64,000 nucleotides of DNA from Pseudomonadota bacterium. Lineage in GTDB: Bacteria; Pseudomonadota; Alphaproteobacteria; Rhodobacterales; Rhodobacteraceae. Of the stretch, positions 1 through 19,178 are shown piece by piece. The notes beneath the pieces are model-generated. The model saw only the letters and a program-made list of their open reading frames with translations. It had not been told where the DNA came from and ran no database searches. Position 1 is the stretch's first letter; each line of letters starts with the position of its first letter. Location of the stretch: assembly GCA_036338635.1 (NCBI GenBank), contig JAYZBS010000045.1, forward strand, positions 4,601 to 68,600. Direction: 5' to 3'. A program made the position numbers and the translations under genes.

Positions 1-645
1 AAGGATCCCGACAGCTACGGCAAGGGCAATCCGGACGGCGTGGCGGCGGCGGAATCGGCAAACTCGTCGTCCGAAGGCGGCTCGATGGTCGGGCTGCTCG
101 CTCTGGGCATCCCCTCAAGCGCGGCAACCGCGATCATGCTCAGCGCTTTCGCGATGCACAATGTCACCGGTGGGCCGCGATTCATCTCGGACAACAAGGG
201 CGTGGTCTATGCCATCATCGCGGGCAACCTTCTTCAGGCGATCCTGCTGGTGGTGGTCGGCATCCTGTTCATCCGGCTCGCGGTCTACCTGGTCCGGGTG
301 CCGTTGGCCTTCCTGCTACCGCCCATCGTGATCTGCACGGTCCTCGGCTCATATGCCCTGACGATGAGCCTGAACGGCCCGGCCACGCTGTTCGTGTTCT
401 CGGTGCTGGGTGTCGTCATGAAGCGTTACGGCTATTCGGTCGTGGCGGTCGTGATCGGCCTGCTGTTGGGATCCATGATGGAGGGCAATCTGGTCCGCAC
501 GTGGCAGCTGGGTCGCAGCAGCCTGATGCCCTTGGTCGAACGCCCCCTGTCGCTGATCATCATGGCGCTGATCGTAACGACTGCCGCGGGGGCCTTCCTT
601 GCAGCCCGCCAGGCAGCCCGGCGCCGTTCCATCACAGGCAAATAG
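1..645 (+). CDS. tctA: Tripartite tricarboxylate transporter permease TctA, C-terminal part (5' end outside window)
   Basis: Frame 1 is open from base 1 and reads KDPDSYGKGNPDGVAAAESANSSSEGGSM..LGIP..., the TctA motif, followed by multiple TM helices. Confidence 0.85.
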   Translation, partial: KDPDSYGKGNPDGVAAAESANSSSEGGSMVGLLALGIPSSAATAIMLSAFAMHNVTGGPRFISDNKGVVYAIIAGNLLQAILLVVVGILFIRLAVYLVRVPLAFLLPPIVICTVLGSYALTMSLNGPATLFVFSVLGVVMKRYGYSVVAVVIGLLLGSMMEGNLVRTWQLGRSSLMPLVERPLSLIIMALIVTTAAGAFLAARQAARRRSITGK

Positions 646-680
646 GCAAGGGAAATAGCTTTTCATGAAGAGGAGACATC

Positions 681-1541
681 ATGGCTGACAAGCGGCTCAA
701 GACGGCCATCGAGGCAAAGGAATTCGTGCTGGCCCCCGGAGTGTTCGACCTGATTTCGGCGCTCGTCGCGGACCGGATGAACTTTCCCGCCCTTTATGTC
801 ACCGGATACGGCACCGTCGCCTCGCATCTGGGCATTCCCGATGCAGGCATCGCGACCTATCGCGACATGCTCGAGCGCATCGCCCAGATCTGCAAGCGCA
901 CCGACCGGCCTGTCATCGCCGATGCCGATACCGGATATGGCGGCTTACTGAACGTGCGCAGCACGGTCGAGGGCTACGAGGCTGCCGGCGTCTCGGCGAT
1001 CCAGCTCGAGGATCAGGAATTTCCCAAGAAATGCGGCCACACGCCCGGCCGCCGGGTCATCCCCGCCGCCGAGATGCAGCGGAAGATCGAGGTTGCGGCA
1101 CAGACCCGGCAGTCCGACGATTTCTTGATCATCGCGCGCACTGACAGCCGAACATCCTTGGGCATTGACGAAGCAATCCGGCGCGGCAAGGCCTATGCCG
1201 AAGTCGGCGCGGATATCATCTTTGTGGAATCGCCGGAAAGCGTCGATGAGATGCGACAGGTCGCGGCCGAGATCAGCACGCCCTTGCTCGCCAACATGGT
1301 CAATGGGGGGCGCACACCGCTCGTTCCGGTCGGCGAGCTTGGGCAGATGGGATATGCCGTAGCCATTCATCCGGCACTGGGCTTTCTCGCCACGGCGCGC
1401 GCTCTCGAGACGGCGTTCTCCGACCTTCTTGCGCATGGCGAGACGACGGACGCGGTCGAACTTTACGATTTCGCCCGCATGAACGAGCTTCTGGGATTTG
1501 AAGAGATCTGGCAGTTCGAACAAAAGTGGCGGGACAAATAG
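681..1541 (+). CDS. Isocitrate lyase/PEP mutase family lyase (2,3-dimethylmalate lyase / oxaloacetate hydrolase-like), copy 1
   Basis: DADTGYGG, QLEDQ, catalytic PKKCGH and IIARTD motifs; RBS GAGGAG upstream. Confidence 0.9.
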   Translation: MADKRLKTAIEAKEFVLAPGVFDLISALVADRMNFPALYVTGYGTVASHLGIPDAGIATYRDMLERIAQICKRTDRPVIADADTGYGGLLNVRSTVEGYEAAGVSAIQLEDQEFPKKCGHTPGRRVIPAAEMQRKIEVAAQTRQSDDFLIIARTDSRTSLGIDEAIRRGKAYAEVGADIIFVESPESVDEMRQVAAEISTPLLANMVNGGRTPLVPVGELGQMGYAVAIHPALGFLATARALETAFSDLLAHGETTDAVELYDFARMNELLGFEEIWQFEQKWRDK

Positions 1542-1668
1542 GACCCTAGCGCGGCGGCGGCTTTTGGGCGGCGAACGGCAATCGTCCGAGTGGGCCTGCG
1601 AACAGGGATCTTCGCCTGCATGATGATGAGGCTGGCTTCCCACTGGCGGCGCCGTGAAGGGTGTCTTC

Positions 1669-1796
1669 TTGATACAACTTGTCCAAAAATGCACTGCAGC
1701 CTTAAGCCTGAGGCAGATTGCATGCGAAAAGTCTGTTACATGTCGCTTTGAAGTTATTTTTGCCGCATATTGCATGCCAATTGCGGTTTGTATAAC
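1669..1796. promoter_or_regulatory. Putative GntR/FCD operator-like sites upstream of gntR
   Basis: TTGATACAA (1669), TTGCATGC (~1718 and ~1770) and TTGTATAAC (1788) resemble TTGTATACAA/TTGCATGCAA-type GntR boxes in an AT-richer spacer. Confidence 0.35.
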
Positions 1797-1821: not shown

Positions 1822-2481
1822 ATGAAGCGACCTATTTCGATTACAGCGACCGACAAGGTCTATGCTCATGTTCGCGACCAGATCCTCGCAGGTGTGTACG
1901 GCGCCGCGACCCGCCTCGGCGAGGCGGCGCTGGCAGAGGAGCTGGGCATCAGTCGGACACCGGTCCGCGAGGCGCTGCGAAAGCTGTCATCTGATGGTTA
2001 TGTTGATCTTCGGCCCCATGTCGGAGCCGTCGTCAAGCCATGGAACCCTGAGGAGGTGCAATCGAGCTTCCTCATCCGCGCCGATATCGAAAGCCAGGCA
2101 GCCGCGCGTGCGGCAGAGCGGATCGCCCTTGCCGACCTCGCCGCGCTGGAGGATATCTGCGAGCGGATCGAGGCGGCTACCGACACTTCGGGCGAAGCAA
2201 TGCGTAGCGCGCTGAATCGTGAGCTACACGCGCGCATTCTCGAGATTTCAGGATTGTCCCATGCGGAAAAGATCGTGACGCAGCTGATGGATCTTGCGGT
2301 GCTGACCTTCACCTTCGGCAGCTTCACGGCCGAAGAGGTCGCGCGCAGCAATTCTGATCACCGCCTTCTTATGCGCGCCTTTCGCGCCCGCGACGCGCAG
2401 CTGGCCCAGTCCGTCATGCGCACGCATATCCTGACGGCCGCTGTCGTCCACGACGAGCGCCGCGCCGGCCTGCGGCGCTGA
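1822..2481 (+). CDS. GntR family (FCD) transcriptional regulator
   Basis: ATG at 1822 after GAGG; HTH LGISRTPVREALRKL; FCD motifs LNRELH and DHRLL. Confidence 0.9.
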   Translation: MKRPISITATDKVYAHVRDQILAGVYGAATRLGEAALAEELGISRTPVREALRKLSSDGYVDLRPHVGAVVKPWNPEEVQSSFLIRADIESQAAARAAERIALADLAALEDICERIEAATDTSGEAMRSALNRELHARILEISGLSHAEKIVTQLMDLAVLTFTFGSFTAEEVARSNSDHRLLMRAFRARDAQLAQSVMRTHILTAAVVHDERRAGLRR

Positions 2482-2508: not shown

Positions 2509-3138
2509 ATGACCGACGACCTGGATGAGAACTATGCCCGCGCCTATGGCGGCCGGCTCGGCTTCGGCAAGCGGCCCGCGCTGATCCTGATCGATCTGGT
2601 GCGCGGCTACTTCGACCGCGACTGCGATCTGTGGGCCGATTGCGACGACGCGCTGGCCTCGGCGATCCGGTTGCGCGACGCGGCGCGGGTGGCGGGCATT
2701 CCGGTCATCTACACCAATGTCGTCTATCACCCCAAGGCGCTGGACGGGGGGCGCTTTTATCAAAAGGCACTGCCGCTGCGCCATTTCCTCAAGGGCAGCC
2801 CCTGGGGGGAATGGGCGCCGGGCCTTGAGCCGTCTGAGGACGAGCTGGTCATCTCGAAGCAGTATGCCAGCGTGTTCTTCGGCACATCGCTGTCCTCGAC
2901 GCTGACCGCGCAGGGGATCGACACGGTGATCCTGACCGGGGTGTCGACCTCGGGCTGCGTGCGGGCGTCCTGCGTGGACGCCAATTCCCACGGCTTCATC
3001 CCGATCATCCCGCGCGAGGCGGTGGGCGACCGCCACCCCGCCCCGCACGAGGCCAACCTCTTCGACATGAATGCCAAATACGGCGACGTCGTCTCCGAGG
3101 CTGAAACGCTGACCTATCTTTCAGGATTGAACCGATGA
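2509..3138 (+). CDS. Isochorismatase-family cysteine hydrolase (maleamate amidohydrolase NicF / N-carbamoylsarcosine amidase-like)
   Basis: Asp-Lys-Cys triad in ILIDL, ISKQYAS and TGVSTSGCVRAS. Confidence 0.85.
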   Translation: MTDDLDENYARAYGGRLGFGKRPALILIDLVRGYFDRDCDLWADCDDALASAIRLRDAARVAGIPVIYTNVVYHPKALDGGRFYQKALPLRHFLKGSPWGEWAPGLEPSEDELVISKQYASVFFGTSLSSTLTAQGIDTVILTGVSTSGCVRASCVDANSHGFIPIIPREAVGDRHPAPHEANLFDMNAKYGDVVSEAETLTYLSGLNR

Positions 3139-4004
3139 CCAAAGCCAGTTTGAAAGCCGCCCTCGCCTCGGGCAAATTCGTCGCCGCACCGGGGCTGCAT
3201 GACATGATCACCGCCGCGGTCGCGAACAAGTTCAACCTGCCCTTCGCCTATGCCTCGGGCTACTGGCTGACCGCCTCGACCCATGGCCTGCCCGATGCCG
3301 GGATCGCGACCTATACGCAGATGGTGGACCGCATCGCCACGCTCTGCCGGGTCAGCAATTCCGCCATCATCGCCGATGCGGACACGGGCTATGGCGGACT
3401 TCTGAACGTGCACCATACCGTGCGCGGCTACGAGGAAGCGGGCGTCATCGCCGTTCAGATCGAGGATCAGGAATTTCCCAAGAAATGCGGCCACACGCCC
3501 TTCAAGCGGGTGATTTCGCTGCAGGACATGACCGACAAGATCAAGGTCGCCTGCGAGGCACGCCGCTCGGACGAGACGCTGATCATCGCCCGCACCGACG
3601 CCCGCCAGACCGAGGGGTTCGAAGGCGCGCTGGCCCGCGGTCAGGCCTTCGCCGATGCCGGCGCCGACGTGGTCTTCGTCGAGGCGCTGGAAAGTGTGGA
3701 CGAGATGCGCGAGGCCTGCCGCCGCATCGATGCTCCGATGATGGCCAACATGGCCGATGGGGGCAAGACGCCGATCCTGCCCGCCGCCGAGCTTCAGGCG
3801 ATCGGCTACTCCATGGCCATCTATCCGGCGATGACCGGCCTTGCCGCCGCACAGGCCGCCGAGAACGCTTTGGCTGCCTTCATTCAGCACGGCACCTCGG
3901 TCACCCCCGCCCAGCCCCTGTTCGACTTCGCGGAGTTCAACGGCCTGATCGGCTTCCCGGAAGTCTGGGAGTTCGAACGCAAATGGGCGCGCGAGCGGGC
4001 ATGA
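3135..4004 (+). CDS. Isocitrate lyase/PEP mutase family lyase, copy 2
   Basis: DADTGYGG, IEDQ, PKKCGH, IIARTD; ATGA overlap with the upstream gene. Confidence 0.9.
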   Translation: MTKASLKAALASGKFVAAPGLHDMITAAVANKFNLPFAYASGYWLTASTHGLPDAGIATYTQMVDRIATLCRVSNSAIIADADTGYGGLLNVHHTVRGYEEAGVIAVQIEDQEFPKKCGHTPFKRVISLQDMTDKIKVACEARRSDETLIIARTDARQTEGFEGALARGQAFADAGADVVFVEALESVDEMREACRRIDAPMMANMADGGKTPILPAAELQAIGYSMAIYPAMTGLAAAQAAENALAAFIQHGTSVTPAQPLFDFAEFNGLIGFPEVWEFERKWARERA

Positions 4005-4759
4005 CTGCTACCCTGCCTCGCCGCGTCCTGGTCGCGGGCGGTTGCGGCGGGATCGGCCGCGCTGTGGTCACGGCGCTTCTGGCCCAGGGGGATGAGGTGG
4101 CGATCCTCGATCTGCCCCTGTCGCTGGACCGGCACCCACCGCCGCCGGGCGTGCTGTCCTGGCCCGTCGACGCCTCCGACCCGGCCAGCGTCACGGCGGC
4201 CGTCGGCGCGCTTGGCGGGGAATGGCCCGCGCTGGACGGCATGGTGAACCTAGTCGGCTTCGCGCCGCCGCCGGTGCCGGTCAGCGATCTGGCGCCCGAG
4301 ATCTGGTCCGAGACGATCGCCGGCAACCTCGGCGCCGGCTTCCTGCTGGCGCGTGCCGCGCTGCCGCTTCTGCGCAAGGGCCGGCAGGCGTCGATGGTCA
4401 ACGTCGCTTCGGGCCTCGCACTGAAATCGACGCCGGGCTACGGCGCCTATGCCGCCGCCAAGGCCGGGATGCTGGCCCTGACGCGCGTCCTTGCGCAGGA
4501 AAATGCGCCGGGCGTGCGAGTGAACGCCGTCGCCCCCTCGGCCGTGGACACCGCTTTCCTGTCGGGCGGCACCGGCCGCGGCGGCGAAGATGGTGCGCCT
4601 GTGATGCTGGACACCGAGGCTTATCTTCGCACGATCCCGATGGGCCGGCTGGCCACGCCCGAGGACGTGCTGGGCCCGATCCTCTTTCTTCTTTCCCCTG
4701 CCGCCGGCTACGTGACGGGCCAGACGCTGCACGTCAATGGCGGCACCCTGATGGTGTAG
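4001..4759 (+). CDS. SDR oxidoreductase
   Basis: ATGA-coupled start at 4001; AGGCGGIG nucleotide-binding motif; YAAAK; VTGQTLHVNGG. Confidence 0.85.
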   Translation: MTATLPRRVLVAGGCGGIGRAVVTALLAQGDEVAILDLPLSLDRHPPPPGVLSWPVDASDPASVTAAVGALGGEWPALDGMVNLVGFAPPPVPVSDLAPEIWSETIAGNLGAGFLLARAALPLLRKGRQASMVNVASGLALKSTPGYGAYAAAKAGMLALTRVLAQENAPGVRVNAVAPSAVDTAFLSGGTGRGGEDGAPVMLDTEAYLRTIPMGRLATPEDVLGPILFLLSPAAGYVTGQTLHVNGGTLMV

Positions 4760-4762: not shown

Positions 4763-6274
4763 ATGACCAAGATGACGATCCCCCACGCCCTGCCGCAGCG
4801 CGTCGGCAGCCTGATCGACGGCCGCGACGCCCCCGGCGCGGGCCATGAGATCCCGGTCTTCTATCCCGCGACCGGCCGCCAGATCAGCACCCTGATCGAG
4901 GCGGATGCAGCCGAGGTGGACCGCGCCGTCACTGCCGCCCGCCGCGCCTTCGACCGCACCGACTGGCCGCGCTGGAGCGTCGATCGCCGCCAGGCCCTGC
5001 TGATGCGCATCAACGAGGTGCTGCTGGCCCATGCCGATGAACTGGCGCTGCTGGAATGCTTGAACCTCGGGGTGTCGCTGCGCGAGCTTCGCGAGATCCA
5101 GATGACCCGCGCCGCCTACAACTTCCGCTTCTTCGCCGAGTATATCAGCCAGCGGCAGGGCGAGGTCTATGATCAGGTGACCGGCTACCGCTCGATCGTG
5201 GTGAAGGAACCGGTAGGCGTCGCCGCCCTGATCGCACCTTGGAACGCGCCGACAGCGCTGGCCTCGATGAAGGTCGCCGCCGCGCTGGCTTTCGGCAATA
5301 CCTGTGTGTTGAAACCCTCCGAGCAGACCCCGCTTGCCCTGCGCCGCTTCGTCGAGCTGCTGCACGAGGCCGGTGTGCCTGAGGGTGTCGTGAACCTGGT
5401 GAACGGCCGCGGGCAGGTCACGGGCGAGGCGCTGGTCGCCCATCCCGGCATCGATCTGGTCAGCTTCACCGGCGGGACGGGAACGGGACGACGGATCATG
5501 GCCTCGGCCGCGCAACGCCTCAAGCCCAGCTCGCTGGAGCTGGGGGGCAAAAGCGCCAACGTGATCTTCGCCTCGGCCGATCTGGATCGGGCGCTGGACG
5601 GCGCGCTGCTCAGCATCTTTTCGGGCAACGGGCAGCAATGCTTGGCCGGATCGCGCATCCTTCTGGAAAAGTCGATCAGCGCCGATTTCATCGACCGTTT
5701 CGTCGCGCGCGCCCGCCAGCTGCGGATCGGCGATCCGATGCTGGACGCGACCGAGATGGGGCCGCTTGGCTCGGCGGCGCATCGCGACCGGGTGCTGTCC
5801 TATGTGGACATCGCCAAGGCCGACGGCGCCCAGATCCTGACCGGCGGCGGCCCCGCCGCGCTTGAGGGCGATCTGGCGGGCGGCTACTTCGTGCAGCCGA
5901 CGGCGGTGCTGGCGCCCTCGAATGCCAGCCGCGTCTGCCAGGAGGAGATCTTCGGCCCCTTCGCGACCTTCGTCACTTTCGACGGCTATGATCAGGCGAT
6001 GCAGATCGCCAATGACACCGAGTTCGGCCTGGTGTCCTATGTCTGGTCGGACCACCTGCCGACGGTCGAGGCCGCCTCGCGCGATCTTCAGGCGGGGGTG
6101 GTCTGGGTCAACACGCCGATGACCCGCGATCTGCGCGCGCCCTTCGGCGGCTACAAGAATTCGGGCGTGGGGCGCGAAAGCGGCGCCTCCAGCGAGGCGT
6201 TCTACACCGAGCTGAAGACCGTCACGATCCCCGAGCGTCCCCTGACCCTGCGCCGGATCGGCCTGCCGGAGTAA
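4763..6274 (+). CDS. Aldehyde dehydrogenase, 2-hydroxymuconic-semialdehyde DH-like subfamily
   Basis: PWN, LKPSE, LELGGKS, catalytic GQQCLAGSR, EEIFGP, RDLRAPFGGYKNSGVGRE. Confidence 0.9.
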   Translation: MTKMTIPHALPQRVGSLIDGRDAPGAGHEIPVFYPATGRQISTLIEADAAEVDRAVTAARRAFDRTDWPRWSVDRRQALLMRINEVLLAHADELALLECLNLGVSLRELREIQMTRAAYNFRFFAEYISQRQGEVYDQVTGYRSIVVKEPVGVAALIAPWNAPTALASMKVAAALAFGNTCVLKPSEQTPLALRRFVELLHEAGVPEGVVNLVNGRGQVTGEALVAHPGIDLVSFTGGTGTGRRIMASAAQRLKPSSLELGGKSANVIFASADLDRALDGALLSIFSGNGQQCLAGSRILLEKSISADFIDRFVARARQLRIGDPMLDATEMGPLGSAAHRDRVLSYVDIAKADGAQILTGGGPAALEGDLAGGYFVQPTAVLAPSNASRVCQEEIFGPFATFVTFDGYDQAMQIANDTEFGLVSYVWSDHLPTVEAASRDLQAGVVWVNTPMTRDLRAPFGGYKNSGVGRESGASSEAFYTELKTVTIPERPLTLRRIGLPE

Positions 6275-6283: not shown

Positions 6284-6326
6284 GAAAGGGCCGCGCCTGC
6301 CATCCGGCGGGCGCGGCCCTTTTTTC
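6284..6326. terminator. Bidirectional intrinsic terminator
   Basis: AAAGGGCCGCGCCTGC-catcc-GGCGGGCGCGGCCCTTTTTT between convergent genes. Confidence 0.85.
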
Positions 6327-8323: not shown

Positions 8324-8360
8324 CGAGGAGCGCCGGCACGGGCAGCACCGGCGGTGTGGA

Positions 8361-9308: not shown

Positions 9309-9350
9309 CTCATCTCTCCTAATGGACCGAAAGGAACTCATGCCCGTCTC

Positions 9351-9561
9351 TTGTGTACGAACTTGTATGCAGGCAGCCACGACCTGCATGCATCTGTCAA
9401 GCGCGACATTCGCCCGTTTGCATAAATTCGACCTGCCGAACTGTCCTGCTACTTAATGCGTATACGCTGCCTTCGACGGCAGCATTACCGGTGCTCCGGC
9501 ATCCGAATCCAAGCAGGACGCAAAAAAACATTTGCAGTATCATCCGTCTCTTTGCATACAA
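9351..9561. promoter_or_regulatory. Divergent promoter region with several GntR-type operator candidates
   Basis: TTGTGTACGA (9351), TTGTATGCAG (9363), perfect palindrome GCGTATACGC (9458) and TTGCATACAA (9552). Confidence 0.5.
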
Positions 9562-13285: not shown

Positions 13286-14032
13286 ATGACCGACAGCCTG
13301 GGCTATCGCATGAAATTCGGGGTCATCGCGCCCTCGACCAACACCTCGGTGCAGCCGGAGTTCGACGACATGCGCCCGGTGGGGGTGACGAACCACTTCT
13401 CGCGCATCTCGATCCCGGACGATCCCGTCCACAGCGATGACGACTTCAACGAGCTGGTGATGCGCATCCGCGCCGCCACGATGGAGGCGTTCGACGTGGT
13501 CAAGACCTGCTCGCCCGACGCGCTGGTCATGGGCATGTCGGCCGAAACCTTCTGGGACGGCAAATCCCGCGCCGACGAGCTGAAGCGCGAGATCGAGGAC
13601 CGCGCAGGCATGCCCGTCGCCATGGGCTCGGACGCCTGCCAGGCGGCTTTGTCCTGCTATGGGAACATCAAGCGCATCGCGGTCGTCACCCCCTATATGC
13701 CGGTGGGCGACGAACAGGTGCGCCGCTTCTTCGAAGATTGCGGCTACGAGGTCGTCACGATCAAGGGCCTCAAATGCAAAAGCCCGATGCTGATCGCGCA
13801 CGAGACCGAGCAGACTTTGCGCGACGCGATCATCGAGGTGAACGATCCCTCCGTCGACGCCATCGTGCAGGCGGGCACCAACCTTGCGATGGCCCGTGTC
13901 GGCGCCATGGCCGAGTTCTGGCTGGACAAGCCCGTGATCGCCATCAACACCGCGACCTACTGGCACGCGCTGCGGATGAACGGGATCAAGGACAAGGTGC
14001 AGGGCTTCGGCTCGCTTCTGTCCCATCACTGA
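13286..14032 (+). CDS. Asp/Glu racemase superfamily (arylmalonate decarboxylase/maleate isomerase-like) protein lacking both catalytic Cys
   Basis: FGVIAPSTNT and VVTPY motifs present; the catalytic positions read VMGMSAETF and VQAGTNL. Confidence 0.8.
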   Translation: MTDSLGYRMKFGVIAPSTNTSVQPEFDDMRPVGVTNHFSRISIPDDPVHSDDDFNELVMRIRAATMEAFDVVKTCSPDALVMGMSAETFWDGKSRADELKREIEDRAGMPVAMGSDACQAALSCYGNIKRIAVVTPYMPVGDEQVRRFFEDCGYEVVTIKGLKCKSPMLIAHETEQTLRDAIIEVNDPSVDAIVQAGTNLAMARVGAMAEFWLDKPVIAINTATYWHALRMNGIKDKVQGFGSLLSHH

Positions 14033-14051: not shown

Positions 14052-14798
14052 ATGCGCCACGCATCCGTGTACAGCCATCGCGGCAAGATCGGCCTCGTCA
14101 CCCCCGCGACCAACACCGTCAACGAGGCCGAATGGACCCGCCTGATGCCGGACGGCGTCACCTTCCACGCGCAGCGGATGGTGCTGCGCGGGGGCAGCCA
14201 TTCAGAGGCCGAGGTCCTGGACCAAATTGCGGATGCCGGTGAGGTGCTGGCGCGGGCGGATGTGGACGTGATCGCCTATGCCTGCACCGCAGGCTCGATG
14301 GTGACCCCGGCCGGTGGCTTGGAGCAGGCGGCCTCGGCCCGCGCGGGGCGGCCGGTGGTGACCACCGCCGCCGCCATCGTCGCGGCCCTCGGGGCACTTG
14401 GCGCCACGCGGGTCGCGATCGCAACGCCCTATCACGAGGCGCTGAACGATCACGAACGCGACTTCCTTTCCGGCCATGGCATCCGGACGCTGGCGATCCG
14501 CGGCCTCGGGATCGGGGCGGGCGGGCCGGCGGAATACCCGCAGATTGCCCGCACGCCGCTGGACCGGGTCCGCGCCCTGGCGCTCGAGGTGCATGACCCG
14601 GACGCCGAGGCGCTGCTGCTGACCTGCACCGATTTCCCGACCCTGCCGCTGATCCCCGAGCTGGAGGCCGAGCTTGGGATTCCGGTCGTCAGTTCGAACA
14701 CGGTGACGCTCTGGGCGGCGCTGCGCGCAGCCGGGATCAACGACCGGATCAATGATGCAGGGCGGCTTCTGACCCTGACAAGCGCCCGAAAGGACTGA
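14052..14798 (+). CDS. Maleate cis-trans isomerase-like protein (two-Cys type)
   Basis: IGLVTPATNT, AYACTAGS, ATPY, LLTCTDFP. Confidence 0.85.
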   Translation: MRHASVYSHRGKIGLVTPATNTVNEAEWTRLMPDGVTFHAQRMVLRGGSHSEAEVLDQIADAGEVLARADVDVIAYACTAGSMVTPAGGLEQAASARAGRPVVTTAAAIVAALGALGATRVAIATPYHEALNDHERDFLSGHGIRTLAIRGLGIGAGGPAEYPQIARTPLDRVRALALEVHDPDAEALLLTCTDFPTLPLIPELEAELGIPVVSSNTVTLWAALRAAGINDRINDAGRLLTLTSARKD

Positions 14799-14801: not shown

Positions 14802-15044
14802 ATGACCCTGCCGCCCCCGACCTGCGCCGCGCTTGCCGAGGACGCTGCGGCGGAGGTGCGCTTCACGTTCGACATCCCGGCGCTGCGCCCGACAATCCGC
14901 CACATCTGCGACTTGCAGCTGAGCTCGGCGCAGCAGGCGCTGCTGAACGGGATCGATGTGATCCTCAACCGCGACCTGCCGGACATCCGCGCCTTCGAGG
15001 CCGAGCGCGCACGCCGCCAGCCATGGTTCTTCGCCGCCGGCTGA
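14802..15044 (+). CDS. 80-aa hypothetical protein
   Basis: Starts just after the previous stop, fills the gap in the operon, GC-rich third codon positions; no motif recognised. Confidence 0.6.
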   Translation: MTLPPPTCAALAEDAAAEVRFTFDIPALRPTIRHICDLQLSSAQQALLNGIDVILNRDLPDIRAFEAERARRQPWFFAAG

Positions 15045-15082: not shown

Positions 15083-16024
15083 ATGAACATCCTGACCCCG
15101 ATTGCCGCTTTGGCCCTCAGCGTGGCCGCCGTTCCCGCCTCGGCGCAGATGGTGGGGCTTGCCACCACGACCGGCGGCGCGACCGAACAGATCGGCCTGC
15201 ACCTCGCCACGATCCTGTCCGATCACAGCGGGCTGACCATCCGCCCGCAGGTGATGGCCAACACCTCGCAATACGTGCCGATGGTCAATGCCGGCAGGAT
15301 CGAGTTCGGCATCGCCAACTACCCCCAGATCGCCCATGCGATCGAAGGCATCGGCATGTCCGAAGGCGACGCGAACCCGGACCTGCGCATGGTCGCGACG
15401 ATCCTGCCCTTCAATGCGGGTCTCGTGGTGCCCGTCGACACCGGGATCGAGCAGCTGTCGGATCTGGCCGGCCATGCGGTCCCGCGCTTTCCGGCCAATT
15501 CGCTTGGCGAGTTCTTCTTCACCGCCGCGATGGAGACGGCGGGCGTGAGCTATGACGACGTGCGCCCCGTGCCGACCGCGAATTTCGGCGAGCAGTTCAA
15601 CAACATCAAGGCGGGGCTGACGGACGTGACCATCGGTTCGGTCGGGGCGCAGTCGATCATGGATGTCGAGGCCTCGCGCGGCGAGGTCCGATATCTGTCG
15701 TTCTCCGAGGGCGACGACGAAATCCTGTCGAGGTATCTGCCCGGGACCAGTCTGACCACATGGGGCGACCGCCCCGCAGCGGCGGGGGTGACGCCCGAAA
15801 CGGTAGTGTTGTTCTACGACTACACGCTGTTTGCCCACAAGGACGTGCCCGACGAGGTCGTCACCGCCGCGCTCGAGGCGCTTTACAGCCAGCCCGAGGC
15901 CGCCCGGTCCGGCGGCGCGCTGTGGTCGGAATATGACGAGACGCAGCTGGCCCGCGTGACCACCCTGCCCTATCACCCGGCCGCCGAAGCCTTCTTCCGC
16001 GACCGCGGCATCTGGGCCGACTGA
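15083..16024 (+). CDS. TAXI-family TRAP solute receptor, copy 2
   Basis: ATG at 15083 after GGAGAG; signal peptide; GRIEFGIANYPQ; PYHPAAEAFF. Confidence 0.85.
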   Translation: MNILTPIAALALSVAAVPASAQMVGLATTTGGATEQIGLHLATILSDHSGLTIRPQVMANTSQYVPMVNAGRIEFGIANYPQIAHAIEGIGMSEGDANPDLRMVATILPFNAGLVVPVDTGIEQLSDLAGHAVPRFPANSLGEFFFTAAMETAGVSYDDVRPVPTANFGEQFNNIKAGLTDVTIGSVGAQSIMDVEASRGEVRYLSFSEGDDEILSRYLPGTSLTTWGDRPAAAGVTPETVVLFYDYTLFAHKDVPDEVVTAALEALYSQPEAARSGGALWSEYDETQLARVTTLPYHPAAEAFFRDRGIWAD

Positions 16025-16083
16025 CGCCGCAGCGACGGCGGGCCGCGCCCCGCCGGCTCACCCTCTTGGCGAAGGAGCCCTCG

Positions 16084-18012
16084 ATGTCCGATCTTACGGG
16101 AACCGGGCCGCGCGCGGTCCGGATCGCGGCCGCCGTTCTGGCCGTCGCGGTGCCGCTGCTGGCCATGGCCTGGGTCCTGGCGCTTCCGCAGCGCGCCGGG
16201 TTGATGATCTTTCCACAGCAGACCGTGGCGCTGATGCTGGGCCTGTCGCTGGCGGTCTGCTTCCTGCGCGGCGGGCCGGATCGGGGGCCGAACGCCCTGG
16301 ACATCGCGCTGGCGCTGGCCTCGCTGGCGCTGGCGGCGCATGTCTTCTGGCGCTTTCCACTTCTGTCCGAACGCGCCTGGAGCCATCCGACCGAGGCAAC
16401 GATCCTCGGCATCGCGGTCATCCTTCTGGTGATGGAGGGCCTGCGCCGCGTTATCGGCGCAATGCTGATCGTGATCTTTGCGATTCTGGTTCTTTACGCC
16501 GTCGCCGGCCAGCATGTTCCGGGCGCGCTGCAAGGCCGGGCGCAGCCCATCGGTGACGTGCTGCAATACATCGGCAGCGATTCCTCGGCCACATGGGGGC
16601 AGTCCTTGCAGATCGCCGCCTTCGTCGTAGTGCTGTTCGTCCTGTTCGCGGCGTTCCTGATGGGCACGGGCGGGTCGGACTTCTTCTCCAGCCTGGCGGG
16701 GCGGGTGTCGGGCAAGGGGCCGGGCGGGTCGGCCAAGGTCGCCGTCACGGCCTCGGGGCTGACGGGCATGATCTCGGGCAGCGCGGTCTCAAACGTGATG
16801 ACGACCGGCGTCATCACCATCCCGGTGATGAAACGCGCGGGCTTCAGCCCCGCCAACGCCTCGGCGATCGAGGCCGTCTCGTCGACCGGCGGCCAGCTGA
16901 TGCCGCCGATCATGGGCGCCGCCGCCTTCCTGATGGCCGAGTTCCTGCAGGTCCCCTACCGCGAAATCATCATCGCTGCCGCCCTGCCGGCGCTGCTCTA
17001 TTTCCTGTCGCTTTACATCCAGATCGACTTCCTCGCCCGCCGCGACCGCCTGCCCGCGGGCGAGGACGGCCCGCGCCGCAGCCTAGGCGCGATCCTGCTG
17101 CGCGGTTGGGTCAGCCTGGCCGCCATCGCGGCGCTGATGAGCGGGATCTTCGCCTTCAACCTGCCGGCCGAGATCTCGGTCGTCTATGCCACGCTGGCGG
17201 TGATGGCGCTGGCCTTGGGGGCCTGGGCGCTCCGTCTGCCCTATGGAGGCATGGCCCCGCGCAAGGTGCTGGACGCGCTGATCGAGGCCGGCCGTTCGAC
17301 CTGCGACATCCTGCTGATCTGCGCGGCGGCAGGGATGATCATCGGGCTGATGACGCTGACCGGCCTCGGCTTCACGCTGAGCTACTACCTGATGTCCTTC
17401 GGCTCGGGCAGCCTGTTCCTACTGCTTCTGCTGGCGGCGGCGATCGGGCTGGTGCTGGGGCTGGGCCTGCCGACGACGGCGGTCTATCTGCTGCTGGCGA
17501 CGCTAGCCGCACCCGCGCTGACGCAGCTGGGCGTTCCGGCCATGTCGGCGCATATGTTCCTGCTGTATTTCGGGATGCTTTCGATGATCACCCCGCCCAT
17601 CGCCATCGCCGCCTATGCCGCTGCCAGCATCGGTGGGGCGGACCAGTACCGCACGGCCTTCGCCGCCTTCCGCTTTGGCTGGGCGTCCTACATCCTGCCC
17701 TTCTACTTCATTTACAAGCCGGGGCTGCTGCTGGATACCGGCTGGATGCAATCGGCCTATGTCTTCGTGTCGACCGCCGTGTCGCTGGCCCTGATCGCCG
17801 GCGCGGTGATCGGCTTCGGCCACAGGCGCCTCAGCGCGGCTGAACGCGGCCTTTGGCTCCTGCTGGGCGCCGGCGTTATCGTGCCGCTGCACGGCATCAC
17901 GCCGCTGGCCGAATATGCCGTCGCGCTGCTGGCGGCGATCGTGCTGGGCCATCACCTGATCGCCAGCCGGCCCGCCCCGGCCCTCCGATCCCACCCTCAG
18001 GAGAACACATGA
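16084..18012 (+). CDS. TRAP fused 4TM/12TM permease, copy 2
   Basis: GMISGSAVSNV, STGGQLMPPIMGAAAFLMAE, LGLGLPTT, MITPPIAIA. Confidence 0.92.
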   Translation: MSDLTGTGPRAVRIAAAVLAVAVPLLAMAWVLALPQRAGLMIFPQQTVALMLGLSLAVCFLRGGPDRGPNALDIALALASLALAAHVFWRFPLLSERAWSHPTEATILGIAVILLVMEGLRRVIGAMLIVIFAILVLYAVAGQHVPGALQGRAQPIGDVLQYIGSDSSATWGQSLQIAAFVVVLFVLFAAFLMGTGGSDFFSSLAGRVSGKGPGGSAKVAVTASGLTGMISGSAVSNVMTTGVITIPVMKRAGFSPANASAIEAVSSTGGQLMPPIMGAAAFLMAEFLQVPYREIIIAAALPALLYFLSLYIQIDFLARRDRLPAGEDGPRRSLGAILLRGWVSLAAIAALMSGIFAFNLPAEISVVYATLAVMALALGAWALRLPYGGMAPRKVLDALIEAGRSTCDILLICAAAGMIIGLMTLTGLGFTLSYYLMSFGSGSLFLLLLLAAAIGLVLGLGLPTTAVYLLLATLAAPALTQLGVPAMSAHMFLLYFGMLSMITPPIAIAAYAAASIGGADQYRTAFAAFRFGWASYILPFYFIYKPGLLLDTGWMQSAYVFVSTAVSLALIAGAVIGFGHRRLSAAERGLWLLLGAGVIVPLHGITPLAEYAVALLAAIVLGHHLIASRPAPALRSHPQENT

Positions 18013-19178
18013 CCGACCCCCACCCCACGGCTCAGTTCAGCTTCGACACACCCGGCGCGCTTTTGATGGAATGGGACGGGGCCGCGCGGCTTGGCGAGTT
18101 GATGGCCGGCTGGTTCCCCGAGCGCGAGCTGTTGATCGTCACTGACGCTTTCCTACACGACGCGGGTCTTCTTGAGCCTGCGAAGGCCTCGCTTCTGGCG
18201 GCAGGATTCCGGATCACGGTCTTCGACGCAGTCGCCGCCGACCCGCCCGAGGCGGTGATGCTGGCCTGCGTTGACACTGGCATTGCCGCGGGGGCAAATG
18301 CCGTCCTGGGCCTTGGCGGCGGCTCGTCGATGGATGTCGCAAAACTCGCGGCGTTCCTGATCCGGAACCCGCAGCCGCTGGCGCCACTTTACGGGATCGG
18401 CAAGCTGCAGGGTGCACGCGCGCCGCTGGTGCAGGTGCCGACGACCTCGGGCACCGGATCCGAAGTGACGAACATCACCATCCTGACCACGGGCGAGACG
18501 ACCAAGATGGGGATCGTTGCCCCGCAGCTTTACGCCGATAAGGTGCTGCTGGACGCGGCGCTGACCGTCGGGCTGCCCCCCGCGCAGACCGCCGCCACAG
18601 GCATCGACGCTATGGTCCACGCGATCGAGGCCTTCACCAGCCGCCATCGCAAGAACCCCGTCTCGGACATGCACGCGCGCGAAGCCCTGCGGCTGCTGGC
18701 GGCCAATCTGGTCATCGCCTGCACTGACGGCGCGCACCGACCTGCGCGCGAGGCGATGCTGCTCGGCGCCGCGCTGGCGGGGCAGGCATTCGCCAACAGC
18801 CCTGTCGCGGCGGTCCATGCGCTGGCCTATCCCTTGGGCGGGCATTTCCACTTGGCCCACGGGCTGACGAACGCGCTGATGCTGGGTCCGGTCCTGCGCC
18901 ACAACCTTCCGGCCGCCGCCCCGCTATATGCCCAGTTGGCCGATACGTTGGGCGTAGGCGAAGGGACGGACGCCGACCGCGCGGCCGCCTTCATCGCCCA
19001 TCTGGAAGGGTTGATGGACGCGGCCGGCTTCAAACGGCACCTGCGCGATCACGCCGTGCCCGAAGAGAGCCTGCCGATGCTGGCGCGCGACGCGATGCTG
19101 CAGACGCGGCTTCTGGTCAACAACCCCGTCGAGGTGACCGAGGCGGACGCCCTGTCGCTGTACCGGCAGGCCTACTAG
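18009..19178 (+). CDS. Iron-containing alcohol dehydrogenase
   Basis: GLGGGSSMD, PTTSGTGSE, DAMVHAIE, HALA..HFHLAHG. Confidence 0.92.
   Translation: MTDPHPTAQFSFDTPGALLMEWDGAARLGELMAGWFPERELLIVTDAFLHDAGLLEPAKASLLAAGFRITVFDAVAADPPEAVMLACVDTGIAAGANAVLGLGGGSSMDVAKLAAFLIRNPQPLAPLYGIGKLQGARAPLVQVPTTSGTGSEVTNITILTTGETTKMGIVAPQLYADKVLLDAALTVGLPPAQTAATGIDAMVHAIEAFTSRHRKNPVSDMHAREALRLLAANLVIACTDGAHRPAREAMLLGAALAGQAFANSPVAAVHALAYPLGGHFHLAHGLTNALMLGPVLRHNLPAAAPLYAQLADTLGVGEGTDADRAAAFIAHLEGLMDAAGFKRHLRDHAVPEESLPMLARDAMLQTRLLVNNPVEVTEADALSLYRQAY

What the first reader, a model, noticed from the sequence alone, without database searches (positions are those of the whole stretch)
1..19178. Intact 19-kb catabolic supercluster of unassigned substrate (maleamate-type lower pathway with lyases)
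The sequence shows an amidohydrolase, two maleate-isomerase-family genes, two PKKCGH lyases, an HMSA-type ALDH, an FAD monooxygenase, an MBL hydrolase, two SDRs, an Fe-ADH, TctA, two TAXI-TRAPs and two GntRs, none visibly broken. It is established that NicF plus maleate isomerase form the maleamate route of pyridine-ring degradation, and that 2,3-dimethylmalate lyase acts in nicotinate fermentation. I infer a pathway for a substituted N-heterocycle or aromatic acid that yields substituted maleamate/malate. No ring-cleavage dioxygenase lies in the window, so the ring may be opened by the monooxygenase plus hydrolases, or by genes upstream.
Basis: partly seen in the sequence, partly recalled or inferred. 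Interest (0 to 1): 0.6.

Follow-up and report, generated by a model that had tools for sequence, protein, structure and literature searches.

The report
Widespread uncharacterised heterocycle-degradation gene cluster
This stretch is a real, nearly intact set of about twenty genes that many marine and soil bacteria keep together, probably to take up and break down a nitrogen-containing ring acid without the usual ring-splitting dioxygenase; no published pathway matches it, so its substrate is still unknown.

Summary
The enzymes are co-conserved: around the Cys-less AMDase-fold gene (at least 577 relatives), 81 loci from alpha-, beta- and gammaproteobacteria repeatedly carry the FAD monooxygenase (74), second isomerase-like gene (60), SDR (56), ICL-type lyase (47), Cys-amidase (43), MBL hydrolase (43) and TAXI transporter, in at least five gene orders. 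No characterised pathway matches end to end.

Three corrections. The cluster runs at least 4.6 kb further upstream, to the contig end: tctCB plus a LeuCD-type hydratase. A 79-codon leuD relic (14802-15038) marks a rearrangement. This copy lacks a PuuE-like hydrolase, ABC transporter and second regulator found in about 60% of full-length relatives.

Best reading (about 0.45): dioxygenase-free catabolism of a hydroxylated N-heterocyclic carboxylate. The steps are hydroxylation or ring opening, AMDase-fold step, lactol oxidation and lactone hydrolysis, Cys-amidase, cis-trans isomerase or hydratase, then PrpB/dimethylmalate-lyase-like cleavage. The leading specific guess is vitamin-B6 catabolites such as 4-pyridoxate; this is untested.

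Earlier notes of this scan flagged the Cys-less protein in other genomes, with no follow-up verdict shown.

The parts
1..645 (+). tctA, 3' part (TTT transporter large subunit). The gene starts upstream of the window; tctC and tctB precede it.
   Evidence: PF01970, 136 bits, profile positions 272-422. Upstream tctC/tctB on the same contig.
681..1541 (+). Lyase 1, ICL/PEP-mutase superfamily, with the FPKKCGH catalytic loop. This is the orthologue conserved in relatives.
   Evidence: PF13714. prpB model 259 bits against a 354 cut-off. PDB best hits: petal death protein 1e-59, methylisocitrate lyase 1e-51, dimethylmalate lyase 1e-46. Present in 47 of 81 loci.
1822..2481 (+). GntR/FCD regulator 1 (accessory).
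   Evidence: PF00392 plus PF07729. Start inferred from orthologue alignment and an RBS. 62% orthologues in Falsirhodobacter loci L006 and L012.
2509..3138 (+). Isochorismatase-fold cysteine amidohydrolase of the CSHase/maleamate-amidase clade.
   Evidence: PF00857. PDB: 26st 2e-48, 4l07 1e-35, 3uao 3e-32. Asp29-Lys117-Cys150 aligned. Present in 43 of 81 loci.
3135..4004 (+). Lyase 2, a paralogue of lyase 1 (54% identity), translationally coupled on both sides.
   Evidence: An orthologue at 80% is found only in Salipiger marinus L003. ATGA overlaps at 3135 and 4001.
4001..4759 (+). SDR 1.
   Evidence: PF13561, 164 bits. Present in 37 of 81 loci.
4763..6274 (+). NAD(P) aldehyde dehydrogenase, like ring-fission semialdehyde dehydrogenases.
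   Evidence: PF00171, 524 bits. HpaE model 504 against 638; hydroxymuconic semialdehyde DH 439 against 693. Present in 27 of 81 loci.
6285..6325 (.). GC-rich hairpin followed by a T-run, between the convergent ALDH and TAXI permease genes. Probable bidirectional terminator.
   Evidence: Read directly from the spacer sequence.
6338..8323 (-). TAXI-TRAP fused permease 1.
   Evidence: TIGR02123, 494 bits against a 321 cut-off.
8361..9389 (-). TAXI solute-binding protein 1 (longest ORF; the true start is probably later).
   Evidence: TIGR02122, 130 bits against an 84 cut-off..
9418..9561 (.). Divergent promoter region with TTGCATA(A) and TTGCATACAA boxes of GntR operator type.
   Evidence: TTGCATAC occurs 11 times in the 3.5-Mb genome. 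Three of these lie in this cluster's two divergent promoters.
9623..10291 (+). GntR/FCD regulator 2 (conserved; 41 of 81 loci).
10288..11112 (+). SDR 2, conserved next to the MBL gene.
   Evidence: PF00106, 146 bits. Present in 56 of 81 loci. No solved relative at E 1e-25 or better.
11122..12018 (+). MBL-fold hydrolase, lactonase-like, with the HLHADH motif.
   Evidence: PF00753. AidB lactonase 94 bits and 4-pyridoxolactonase 66 bits, both far below cut-off. PDB: dihydrocoumarin hydrolase/MPH ancestors 5e-15, 4-pyridoxolactonase 1.5e-11. Present in 43 of 81 loci.
12062..13258 (+). Single-component group-A FAD monooxygenase with no C-terminal extension.
   Evidence: PF01494, 220 bits. PDB: PnpA 7e-70, HspB 3e-53. 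GxGxxG, DG and GD motifs present. Found within 10 kb of AMD1 in 74 of 81 loci, typically directly upstream.
13286..14032 (+). AMD1: AMDase/maleate-isomerase-fold protein lacking both catalytic Cys (GMSAETF, QAGTNL). The most conserved gene of the cluster.
   Evidence: PF17645, 67 bits. Alignment A1. 70-91% identity across 80 loci; at least 577 relatives.
14052..14798 (+). AMD2: two-Cys member of the same fold (YACTAGS, LTCTDF), maleate cis-trans isomerase-like.
   Evidence: PF17645, 110 bits. PDB: AMDase 2e-19, maleate isomerase 2e-19. Present in 60 of 81 loci.
14802..15038 (+). Relic of the 3' end of a leuD-like hydratase small-subunit gene (a deletion scar).
   Evidence: 76% identity to residues 120-203 of the genome's own intact copy upstream, and 49% to Salipiger L003, where the order is AMD2-leuC-leuD-TAXI.
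15083..16024 (+). TAXI solute-binding protein 2 (44% identical to SBP1).
   Evidence: TIGR02122, 118 bits. Start at the second Met, behind an RBS..
16066..18012 (+). TAXI-TRAP fused permease 2.
   Evidence: TIGR02123, 508 bits.
18009..19178 (+). Fe-dependent alcohol dehydrogenase (accessory), coupled to the permease by an ATGA overlap.
   Evidence: PF00465 plus PF25137. All NCBIfam equivalogs are below cut-off. About 50% orthologue upstream of the monooxygenase in L006 and L012.
19208..19618 (-). 5'-truncated ribB (right border, not part of the pathway), followed by a DDE transposase fragment at 19751-20407.
   Evidence: PF00926 matched from profile position 69 only. PF13737.

Best explanation
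The region is one functional catabolic island, at least 23.8 kb counting the upstream genes. It is a rearranged variant of a widely conserved but uncharacterised cluster.

Proposed working (only the gene content and co-conservation are shown; every chemical step is inferred):
1. An anionic, already hydroxylated N-heterocyclic carboxylate, and a related lactol or lactone form, enter through the two TAXI-TRAP systems and TctCBA.
2. SDR2 and the MBL lactonase-like enzyme convert a lactol through a lactone to the acid. SDR1 or the Fe-ADH, together with the ALDH, oxidise alcohol and aldehyde functions.
3. The PnpA/HspB-like FAD monooxygenase hydroxylates the ring and so destabilises or opens it.
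4. AMD1, the Cys-less AMDase-fold protein that almost always accompanies the monooxygenase, holds the resulting carboxylate or enolate. It decarboxylates or tautomerises it. An MHPCO-like opening of a 3-hydroxy-4-carboxypyridine would give a 2-alkenylmalonate, which is the substrate class of this fold.
5. The Asp-Lys-Cys amidase releases the nitrogen as ammonia, from an amide, enamide or carbamoyl group.
6. The remaining cis-unsaturated di- or tricarboxylate is isomerised by the two-Cys AMD2, or hydrated by the LeuCD-type hydratase, to a 2-hydroxy acid.
7. The PrpB/dimethylmalate-lyase-like lyases split that acid into a 2-oxo acid plus a carboxylic acid.

No dioxygenase takes part.
For: - Co-conservation. 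Within 10 kb of AMD1 in 81 loci: FADMO 74, AMD2 60, SDR2 56, lyase 47, amidase 43, MBL 43, GntR/FCD 41, TAXI about 45, SDR1 37, ALDH 27. These occur in at least five different gene orders and in three proteobacterial classes.
- Of 58 loci of 19 kb or more, 24 carry all six of FADMO, AMD1, AMD2, SDR2, amidase and lyase.
- The accessory genes of this window (TctA, GntR1, Fe-ADH, lyase 2) recur with the core in Falsirhodobacter and Salipiger.
- A shared TTGCATAC box occurs in the promoters of both halves: 3 of the 11 genomic copies.
- Operon structure with overlapping stop and start codons.
- Four families that act on maleate/malate-type skeletons occur together: a NicF/CSHase-clade amidase with an intact triad, a two-Cys isomerase-like protein, a LeuCD-type hydratase next to AMD2 in 7 loci and just upstream here, and KKCGH lyases.
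- Relatives that lack the ICL-type lyase carry a CoA-transferase plus a TPP enzyme or an HMG-CoA-lyase-like gene instead. These are other ways to cleave a hydroxy acid.
- No dioxygenase family is conserved in any arrangement. No Peptidase_M29 gene is found in the genome.
- A hydrolytic, dioxygenase-free pyridone route with the same logic (FAD monooxygenase, SDR, cyclic imidase, amidase) is documented in Aspergillus nidulans (PMC9304392).
Against: - No step has biochemical support and no substrate is identified.
- The monooxygenase's nearest solved relatives (PnpA, HspB) hydroxylate with loss of a substituent. They do not open rings and normally feed a dioxygenase.
- AMD1 lacks the proton-donor Cys of true AMDases and the nucleophile Cys of maleate isomerases, so any activity assigned to it is a guess.
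- The amidase is closer to a carbamoyl-amine hydrolase than to the maleamate amidases.
- The LeuCD pair passes NCBI's biosynthetic LeuC/LeuD cut-offs. It could be an ordinary leucine gene pair, although a second copy exists on another contig.
- This window lacks the PuuE-like hydrolase and ABC transporter present in about 60% of full-length relatives, so its pathway may be partial.
Confidence: 0.45

Rival explanations
1. It degrades vitamin-B6 catabolites (pyridoxal, 4-pyridoxolactone, 4-pyridoxate) or another 3-hydroxypyridine carboxylate. SDR2 plus MBL would act as pyridoxal dehydrogenase plus pyridoxolactonase. SDR1 or Fe-ADH plus ALDH would oxidise the 5'-hydroxymethyl group. FADMO would open the ring as MHPC oxygenase does. 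AMD1 would decarboxylate the alkenylmalonate formed, AMD2 would interconvert E and Z forms, and the Cys-amidase would cleave the enamide. This is a specific version of the best explanation.
For: - Reaction types map one to one onto the Mesorhizobium pathway (established knowledge).
- SDR-type pyridoxal dehydrogenase and MBL-type pyridoxolactonase are documented.
- The MBL protein does hit the pyridoxolactonase model and structure, weakly.
- Diatoms exude 4-pyridoxolactone and pyridoxal. Lactonase homologues are dominated by Rhodobacteraceae, Phyllobacteriaceae, Aurantimonadaceae, Alcaligenaceae and Rhodospirillaceae (bioRxiv 10.64898/2026.01.20.700305). These are the same taxa that carry this cluster.
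- It gives a chemical reason for the near-invariant FADMO-AMD1 pairing.
Against: - The MBL scores 66 bits against a 325-bit cut-off for 4-pyridoxolactonase.
- MHPC oxygenase is not among solved relatives of the FADMO at E 1e-10 or better.
- SDR2 has no solved relative at 1e-25 or better.
- The LeuCD-type hydratase and the lyases are not needed in the known B6 routes.
- B6 is a scarce nutrient for so large a cluster with two or three transporters.
Confidence: 0.17
2. It degrades a cyclic imide, ureide or hydantoin-type compound, for example a substituted maleimide from tetrapyrrole oxidation, or an orotate/hydantoin-like ring. A PuuE-like or MBL enzyme would open the ring hydrolytically. The CSHase-like enzyme would remove the amide or carbamoyl group. 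AMD2 would act as a racemase or isomerase, and the hydratase and lyase would finish the carbon chain. The monooxygenase and AMD1 would only prepare the ring.
For: - A PuuE-allantoinase-like NodB-fold hydrolase (3cl6, 1e-39) follows AMD1 in 38 relatives.
- This family includes cyclic imide hydrolases (PMC9304392).
- The amidase's best solved relative is an N-carbamoylsarcosine amidase.
- AMD2 has the two Cys of racemases and isomerases.
- Dialkylmaleate hydratase plus dialkylmalate lyase would suit methyl-substituted maleimides. Hematinic acid is a known tetrapyrrole oxidation product (papers listed).
Against: - The window and its own genome have no orthologue of the PuuE-like gene; the best match is 33% identical. 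Yet the rest of the cluster is intact.
- PuuE travels with the ABC transporter (33 loci have both, 1 each alone). It therefore looks like an optional entry module rather than the core step.
- This reading gives no clear role to the most conserved pair, FADMO and AMD1.
- No literature on bacterial maleimide or hematinic acid catabolism was found.
Confidence: 0.15
3. It is the classical nicotinate, nicotine or picolinate lower pathway. 2,5-dihydroxypyridine would go to N-formylmaleamate, maleamate, maleate and fumarate, using a dioxygenase encoded elsewhere.
For: - An HspB-like monooxygenase (3e-53).
- An Ami/NicF-like amidase.
- A two-Cys maleate-isomerase-like protein.
Against: - No NicX/Hpo-type (Peptidase_M29; the family assignment is from memory) gene in a genome that is 95.9% complete.
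- No alpha/beta-hydrolase deformylase in the cluster.
- No dioxygenase is conserved in any of 81 loci.
- The lyases, hydratase, SDRs, MBL and AMD1 have no role in that pathway.
- All published maleamate pathways retrieved include the dioxygenase.
Confidence: 0.05
4. The substrate has no nitrogen. It would be a hydroxy-aromatic, pyrone, furanone or butenolide acid. The isochorismatase-fold enzyme would act as an ester or ether hydrolase, and SDR2 plus MBL would oxidise a lactol to a lactone or anhydride that yields a substituted maleate.
For: - The MBL resembles lactonases.
- PnpA is a phenol monooxygenase.
- The ALDH resembles ring-fission semialdehyde dehydrogenases.
- The logic of SDR, lactonase, isomerase, hydratase and lyase parallels the protocatechuate 4,5-cleavage pathway (established knowledge).
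Against: - The Asp-Lys-Cys hydrolases nearest to this protein are all amidases.
- PuuE-like C-N hydrolases and LIV/amide-type ABC transporters accompany the cluster in most relatives.
- An aromatic carbocycle could not be opened without a dioxygenase.
Confidence: 0.1
5. It is several unrelated operons that happen to lie side by side on a transposon-rich plasmid-like contig, with no common pathway.
For: - Three transcription units with separate regulators and transporters.
- A transposase and a truncated ribB at the border.
- A leuD relic shows recent rearrangement.
- gntR1 has atypically low GC3.
Against: - Genes of both halves are neighbours in dozens of unrelated genomes, in different orders.
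- Both halves share a rare operator-like box.
Confidence: 0.06

Closest known systems
Maleamate pathway of nicotinate and nicotine degradation (Pseudomonas putida NicC/X/D/F/E; strain S16 HspB/Hpo/Nfo/Ami/Iso)
   Same: - An FAD monooxygenase related to HspB.
- An isochorismatase-fold Cys amidase related to Ami and NicF.
- A two-Cys maleate-isomerase-fold protein.
- Nitrogen presumably leaves as ammonia from an amide.
   Different: - No 2,5-dihydroxypyridine dioxygenase and no alpha/beta-hydrolase deformylase.
- The monooxygenase is not NicC-like.
- Extra conserved genes with no counterpart: Cys-less AMD1, SDR plus MBL, ICL-type lyase(s), LeuCD-type hydratase, ALDH.
Lower part of nicotinate fermentation in Eubacterium barkeri (dimethylmaleate hydratase DmdAB plus 2,3-dimethylmalate lyase Dml)
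   Same: A two-subunit aconitase-family hydratase plus a KKCGH lyase of the ICL/PEP-mutase superfamily, acting (by inference) on a substituted maleate and malate.
   Different: - The organisms here are aerobic proteobacteria.
- There is no enamidase, B12 mutase or methylitaconate isomerase.
- The hydratase scores as bacterial LeuCD.
- The lyases are nearer to petal death protein and PrpB than to dimethylmalate lyase.
Hydrolytic nicotinate pathway of Aspergillus nidulans (HxnX/V monooxygenases, HxnW SDR, HxnM cyclic imidase, HxnN amidase; PMC9304392)
   Same: - Dioxygenase-free logic.
- Order of steps: flavin hydroxylation, SDR oxidation of a carbinol next to N, hydrolytic ring opening, then amidase.
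- Relatives of this cluster carry an HxnM/PuuE-family hydrolase.
   Different: - No Old Yellow Enzyme reductase.
- The amidase belongs to a different fold.
- The end product there is 2-hydroxyglutarate, with no lyase, hydratase or isomerase.
- That pathway is fungal.
Vitamin B6 degradation pathway I of Mesorhizobium (pyridoxal dehydrogenase, 4-pyridoxolactonase, two dehydrogenases, decarboxylase, MHPC oxygenase, acetamidomethylenesuccinate hydrolase)
   Same: The same series of reaction types can be mapped onto SDR2, MBL, SDR1/Fe-ADH, ALDH, AMD1, FADMO and the amidase. The SDR and MBL folds are shared.
   Different: - None of the proteins reaches orthologue-level similarity.
- The decarboxylase and the final hydrolase would be of different folds.
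- The lyases, hydratase and AMD2 are extra.
Arylmalonate decarboxylase and maleate cis-trans isomerase (Asp/Glu racemase superfamily)
   Same: AMD1 and AMD2 have this fold. AMD2 keeps both Cys of the isomerase. Both keep the TNT and TPY carboxylate-binding segments.
   Different: AMD1 has Gly at both Cys positions, so it fits neither known mechanism. Both score far below NCBI's AMDase cut-off (61 and 113 bits against 225).

Membership tests
Nicotinate/2,5-dihydroxypyridine maleamate pathway | Maleamate amidohydrolase: isochorismatase fold with an Asp-Lys-Cys triad | tested here: met
   Asp29, Lys117 and Cys150 align with Ami (4l07) and NicF (3uao). The C-to-A variant 4l08 marks the nucleophile. 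The closest solved protein is an N-carbamoylsarcosine amidase, so the substrate is open.
Nicotinate/2,5-dihydroxypyridine maleamate pathway | Two-Cys maleate cis-trans isomerase | tested here: met
   AMD2 has Cys78 and Cys192 in the YACTAGS and LTCTDF motifs. 4fq7 matches at 2e-19. This holds at fold and motif level only.
Nicotinate/2,5-dihydroxypyridine maleamate pathway | 2,5-dihydroxypyridine 5,6-dioxygenase (NicX/Hpo) | tested here: not met
   All ORFs of the cluster are assigned to other families. There is no PF02073 match in the whole genome, which is 95.9% complete. That NicX belongs to this Pfam family is from memory.
Nicotinate/2,5-dihydroxypyridine maleamate pathway | N-formylmaleamate deformylase (alpha/beta hydrolase) | tested here: not met
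   No alpha/beta-hydrolase gene in the window cluster or in the conserved families of 81 loci.
Nicotinate fermentation lower pathway (DmdAB/Dml) | ICL/PEP-mutase lyase with a catalytic Cys loop | tested here: met
   FPKKCGH in both lyases. Dimethylmalate lyase 3fa3 matches at 1e-46 and 3e-42, but other family members score better.
Nicotinate fermentation lower pathway (DmdAB/Dml) | Two-subunit aconitase-family hydratase | tested here: met
   G000:C45:719-2134 and 99-716 (upstream of the window). 81% and 70% identical to the pair that follows AMD2 in Salipiger L003.
Nicotinate fermentation lower pathway (DmdAB/Dml) | Enamidase, 2-methyleneglutarate mutase and methylitaconate isomerase | tested here: not met
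   None among the cluster's genes or the conserved neighbour families.
Methylcitrate cycle methylisocitrate lyase PrpB | Score above the equivalog cut-off of TIGR02317 | tested here: not met
   259 and 253 bits against a 354 cut-off.
Vitamin B6 degradation pathway I | 4-pyridoxolactonase equivalog | tested here: not met
   NF047925 scores 65.7 bits against a 325 cut-off. 3aj3 matches at 1.5e-11. The fold is shared only.
Vitamin B6 degradation pathway I | MHPC oxygenase-type ring-opening flavoprotein | tested here: inconclusive
   It is a group-A flavoprotein, but MHPC oxygenase is not among solved relatives at E 1e-10 or better. The nearest are PnpA and HspB. Ring-opening ability cannot be read from sequence.
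Arylmalonate decarboxylase (EC 4.1.1.76) | Catalytic Cys (Cys188 of the Bordetella enzyme) with Gly at the first site | tested here: not met
   AMD1 has Gly at both sites and AMD2 has Cys at both. NF052327 scores 61 and 113 bits against a 225 cut-off.
TAXI-type TRAP transporter | TAXI binding protein plus fused DctQM permease above the curated cut-offs | tested here: met
   TIGR02122 scores 130 and 118 bits (cut-off 84). TIGR02123 scores 494 and 508 bits (cut-off 321).
PuuE-type NodB-fold cyclic amide hydrolase module (present in relatives) | The gene is present in this cluster or genome | tested here: not met
   No match in the window. The best genome match is 33% identical. The gene is present in 34 of 58 full-length relatives, nearly always with the ABC transporter.

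The most novel reading that the evidence does not exclude
The cluster encodes a so far undescribed, widespread route that mineralises vitamin-B6 catabolites (4-pyridoxolactone, 4-pyridoxate) or similar 3-hydroxypyridine carboxylates exuded by algae and plants. A PnpA/HspB-like flavoprotein would open the pyridine ring. A new, thiol-free branch of the arylmalonate-decarboxylase fold would remove the carboxyl group from the alkenylmalonate so formed. The carbon would then drain through an isomerase or LeuCD-type hydratase and a PrpB-like lyase.
Probability: 0.15. Interest if true: 0.85.

Novelty: new variant of a known kind. Interest (0 to 1): 0.58.

Why it matters
A gene set kept together in at least several hundred species of marine and rhizosphere proteobacteria, with two or three dedicated transporters, must serve a common natural compound. 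Yet all its proteins carry only generic family-level names or none, and no published pathway fits.

It combines familiar end-steps of pyridine degradation with three unusual features:
- no ring-cleavage dioxygenase;
- a thiol-free member of the racemase/AMDase fold that almost always accompanies a flavin monooxygenase;
- a C-C lyase of the isocitrate-lyase family.

Finding the substrate would assign functions to about ten enzyme families at once. It would define a new activity for the AMDase fold. It could also explain how phycosphere and rhizosphere bacteria recycle an N-heterocyclic exudate, possibly vitamin-B6 breakdown products that were recently proposed as signals.

Tried and rejected
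- **Published pathway.** I looked for a published pathway with this enzyme set. Only classical maleamate pathways with a dioxygenase turned up.
- **Homarine operon.** homABCDER (PMC13236597) has a different gene set (HomA/HomB pair, peptidase, ALDH). Rejected.
- **Near-identical DNA in plasmids**. Only short pieces matched. This did lead to the Allorhizobium plasmid locus L001.
- **Names in the 5.8-billion protein set** for the monooxygenase. Only generic names appeared.
- **Operator conservation.** I tested whether the TTGCATA box is a conserved operator in the 80 related loci. It is not, so it is lineage-specific.
- **PuuE-like gene elsewhere in the genome**. Only distant paralogues.
- **SDR2 against solved structures** with a strict threshold. 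Nothing at 1e-25 or better.
- **MBL protein against plasmids**, to find the Pseudosulfitobacter pyridoxolactonase. It is not in that collection, so orthology with that enzyme could not be tested.
- **Earlier notes of this scan**. They flag the Cys-less protein and its pairing with PuuE-like genes in other genomes, but no follow-up verdict was shown for those notes.

Full report
**1. What is in the sequence**

Six-frame ORFs filtered by third-position GC and scanned against Pfam and NCBIfam give the following map.

| Coordinates | Strand | Gene |
|---|---|---|
| 1-645 | + | tctA, 3' end |
| 681-1541 | + | lyase 1 |
| 1822-2481 | + | gntR1 |
| 2509-3138 | + | isochorismatase-fold hydrolase |
| 3135-4004 | + | lyase 2 |
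| 4001-4759 | + | SDR1 |
| 4763-6274 | + | ALDH |
| about 6285-6325 | . | terminator-like hairpin |
| 6338-8323 | - | TAXI permease 1 |
| 8361-9389 | - | TAXI binding protein 1 |
| 9623-10291 | + | gntR2 |
| 10288-11112 | + | SDR2 |
| 11122-12018 | + | MBL hydrolase |
| 12062-13258 | + | FAD monooxygenase |
| 13286-14032 | + | AMD1 |
| 14052-14798 | + | AMD2 |
| 15083-16024 | + | TAXI binding protein 2 |
| 16066-18012 | + | TAXI permease 2 |
| 18009-19178 | + | Fe-ADH |

- Four junctions are ATGA stop/start overlaps.
- Orthologues align over full length, so none of the listed genes is truncated.
- Expected motifs are present:
  - FPKKCGH in both lyases;
  - HLHADH in the MBL protein;
  - GxGxxG, DG and GD in the flavoprotein;
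  - Asp29/Lys117/Cys150 in the hydrolase;
  - Cys78 and Cys192 in AMD2;
  - Gly at both of those positions in AMD1.
- No enzyme except the TAXI components reaches an NCBIfam equivalog cut-off. All names are therefore family-level.

**2. Limits of the cluster**

- The window is G000:C45:4601-68600.
- Upstream on the same contig lie tctB, tctC and, divergently, a two-subunit aconitase-family hydratase, reaching the contig end. The large subunit is at C45:719-2134 and the small subunit at 99-716. The island is therefore at least 23.8 kb.
- The hydratase is 81% and 70% identical to a pair that follows AMD2 directly in Salipiger marinus (L003).
- In the window, the 'spacer' after AMD2 still encodes 79 residues. 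They are 76% identical to the C-terminus of the genome's own small subunit.
- This is a scar showing that leuC and the 5' part of leuD were lost from that place. The present layout is a rearrangement.
- The right border is a 5'-truncated ribB and a transposase fragment.

**3. Co-conservation**

- A first clue came from an unannotated Allorhizobium plasmid. There, ten of the enzymes lie together in a different order.
- A scan of species-representative genomes with AMD1 found at least 577 relatives. The 80 best loci are 69-91% identical. They come from Rhodobacterales, Hyphomicrobiales, other Alphaproteobacteria, Pigmentiphaga (beta) and Granulosicoccaceae/Halioglobus (gamma).
- Within 10 kb of AMD1, counting 81 loci with the Allorhizobium one:

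| Gene | Loci with it (of 81) |
|---|---|
| FAD monooxygenase | 74, typically directly upstream |
| AMD2 | 60 |
| SDR2 | 56 |
| lyase | 47 |
| amidase | 43 |
| MBL | 43 |
| GntR/FCD | 41 |
| TAXI | about 45 |
| SDR1 | 37 |
| ALDH | 27 |

- At least five arrangements occur.
- An unbiased clustering of all ORFs of these loci found no conserved dioxygenase. It did find three conserved items absent from the window:
  - a 304-aa NodB-fold hydrolase related to PuuE allantoinase (3cl6, 1e-39);
  - a GntR/UTRA regulator;
  - a five-gene LIV-type ABC transporter.
- The hydrolase and the ABC transporter travel together: 33 loci have both and 1 each has only one. I read them as an optional entry module.
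- The own genome has no orthologue of the hydrolase.
- The window's accessory genes recur with the core in Falsirhodobacter (TctA 80%, GntR1 62%, Fe-ADH 50%) and in Salipiger (lyase 2, 80%).

**4. One regulon?**

- The word TTGCATAC occurs 11 times in the 3.5-Mb genome. Two copies lie in the leuC|tctC spacer. One lies in the TAXI|gntR2 spacer, as TTGCATACAA, a near-palindrome of GntR/FadR type.
- The Salipiger counterpart has CTTGTATACGAA.
- The exact word is not conserved in other lineages.
- This is suggestive, not proof, of common control of both halves.

**5. What the enzymes point to**

- The flavoprotein's nearest solved relatives are p-nitrophenol monooxygenase PnpA (7e-70) and 6-hydroxy-3-succinoylpyridine monooxygenase HspB (3e-53). 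Both attack activated hydroxy-(hetero)aromatics.
- The hydrolase belongs to the clade of N-carbamoylsarcosine amidase (2e-48) and the maleamate amidases Ami and NicF (about 1e-35 to 1e-32).
- AMD2 resembles maleate isomerase and AMDase equally.
- The lyases are nearest petal death protein, a Bacillus 'CPEP mutase', methylisocitrate lyases and dimethylmalate lyase.
- The MBL protein is nearest lactonases.
- The ALDH is nearest ring-fission semialdehyde dehydrogenases.
- Four of these families (amidase, isomerase, LeuCD-type hydratase, ICL-type lyase) work on maleate/malate-type skeletons.
- Relatives that lack the lyase carry CoA-transferase plus a TPP enzyme, or CoA-transferase plus an HMG-CoA-lyase-like gene. 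These are alternative ways to split a hydroxy acid.
- In Falsirhodobacter, a PrpD-family gene and a TcuA-like flavoprotein are neighbours.
- Together this supports a lower pathway through a cis-unsaturated di- or tricarboxylate and a 2-hydroxy acid.

**6. Mechanism proposed**

- The steps are given under Best explanation. Gene content, order, motifs and co-conservation are shown. Every chemical step is inferred.
- The near-invariant FADMO-AMD1 pair is the least understood part.
- A chemically attractive idea is as follows. An MHPC-oxygenase-like opening of a 3-hydroxypyridine-4-carboxylate turns C3 into a carboxylate next to the C4 carboxylate. The product is a 2-alkenylmalonate, the substrate class of AMDase-fold decarboxylases. 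A proton-donating thiol may be dispensable when the product carbon is not chiral.
- This idea, the SDR plus MBL pair, and a recent preprint make B6 catabolites the leading specific candidate. The preprint shows that diatoms exude 4-pyridoxolactone and that lactonase homologues abound in the same bacterial families.
- The similarity scores do not support orthology with the known B6 enzymes.
- Cyclic imide or ureide substrates are the main alternative. They are favoured by the PuuE-like gene of relatives and by the CSHase-like amidase.
- A documented precedent for a dioxygenase-free pyridone route is the Aspergillus nidulans hxn pathway (PMC9304392).

**7. Comparison with the known**

- The set is not the classical maleamate pathway. 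It has no NicX-type dioxygenase in the cluster or genome and no deformylase.
- It is not the Eubacterium fermentation pathway, the Mesorhizobium B6 pathway or the homarine operon.
- All relatives whose source gives a name carry only generic ones.
- I therefore class it as a new variant of a known kind: N-heterocycle or cyclic-amide catabolic clusters ending in a maleamate-like route.

**8. Verdict**

- The substrate is unknown.
- Interest is moderate to high. The cluster is widespread, coherent and unassigned, and it contains a fold variant with no known mechanism.
- This particular copy is a rearranged, possibly reduced version.

Noticed in passing
window 14802-15038 (+): A 79-codon open remnant of a leuD-like small hydratase subunit lies in the spacer between AMD2 and the second TAXI binding-protein gene. 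It is 76% identical to the intact copy upstream of the window. It marks the loss of about 1.9 kb (leuC plus the 5' part of leuD) from the ancestral AMD2-leuCD-TAXI order seen in Salipiger.
   Followed up: yes
window 9418-9561; G000:C45:2196 and 2248 (upstream of the window); variants at window about 1720 and 1770: TTGCATAC boxes. There are 11 in the whole genome, and 3 of them lie in the two divergent promoter regions of this cluster. The form TTGCATACAA resembles GntR/FadR-type operators. The exact word is not conserved in other lineages.
   Followed up: partly
L001:15524-16438 and 37 other loci (e.g. L004:10766-11674): A highly conserved 304-aa PuuE-allantoinase-like NodB-fold hydrolase has no Pfam hit at E 1e-5 or better. 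It follows AMD1 in about half of the relatives and co-occurs almost perfectly with a LIV-type ABC transporter. It is absent from this genome.
   Followed up: partly
L035:1010-4990; L053:14476-15804; L091:13464-15616: In relatives without the ICL-type lyase, the cluster carries a family-III CoA-transferase together with a TPP enzyme, or an HMG-CoA-lyase-like gene. This looks like non-orthologous replacement of the C-C cleavage step.
   Followed up: no
L057:3042-4178 and two other divergent loci: A Rieske/VanA-type oxygenase gene lies directly upstream of the monooxygenase. It hints that some lineages first demethylate an N- or O-methylated form of the substrate.
   Followed up: no
window 19208-20407: A ribB fragment lacks its first 68 or so codons and abuts a DDE transposase fragment. 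The catabolic island ends at a transposition scar.
   Followed up: no
window 6338-9389 and 15083-18012: The two TAXI systems are only 44% (binding protein) and 53% (permease) identical. They correspond to two orthologue groups that relatives usually carry singly. This window and Salipiger carry both, which suggests two related substrates.
   Followed up: partly
L005:16541-17710, L019:4434-5552, L090:17850-18953: An AbrB-family (PF05145) membrane protein is attached to the cluster in about ten relatives. It may be yet another transporter.
   Followed up: no
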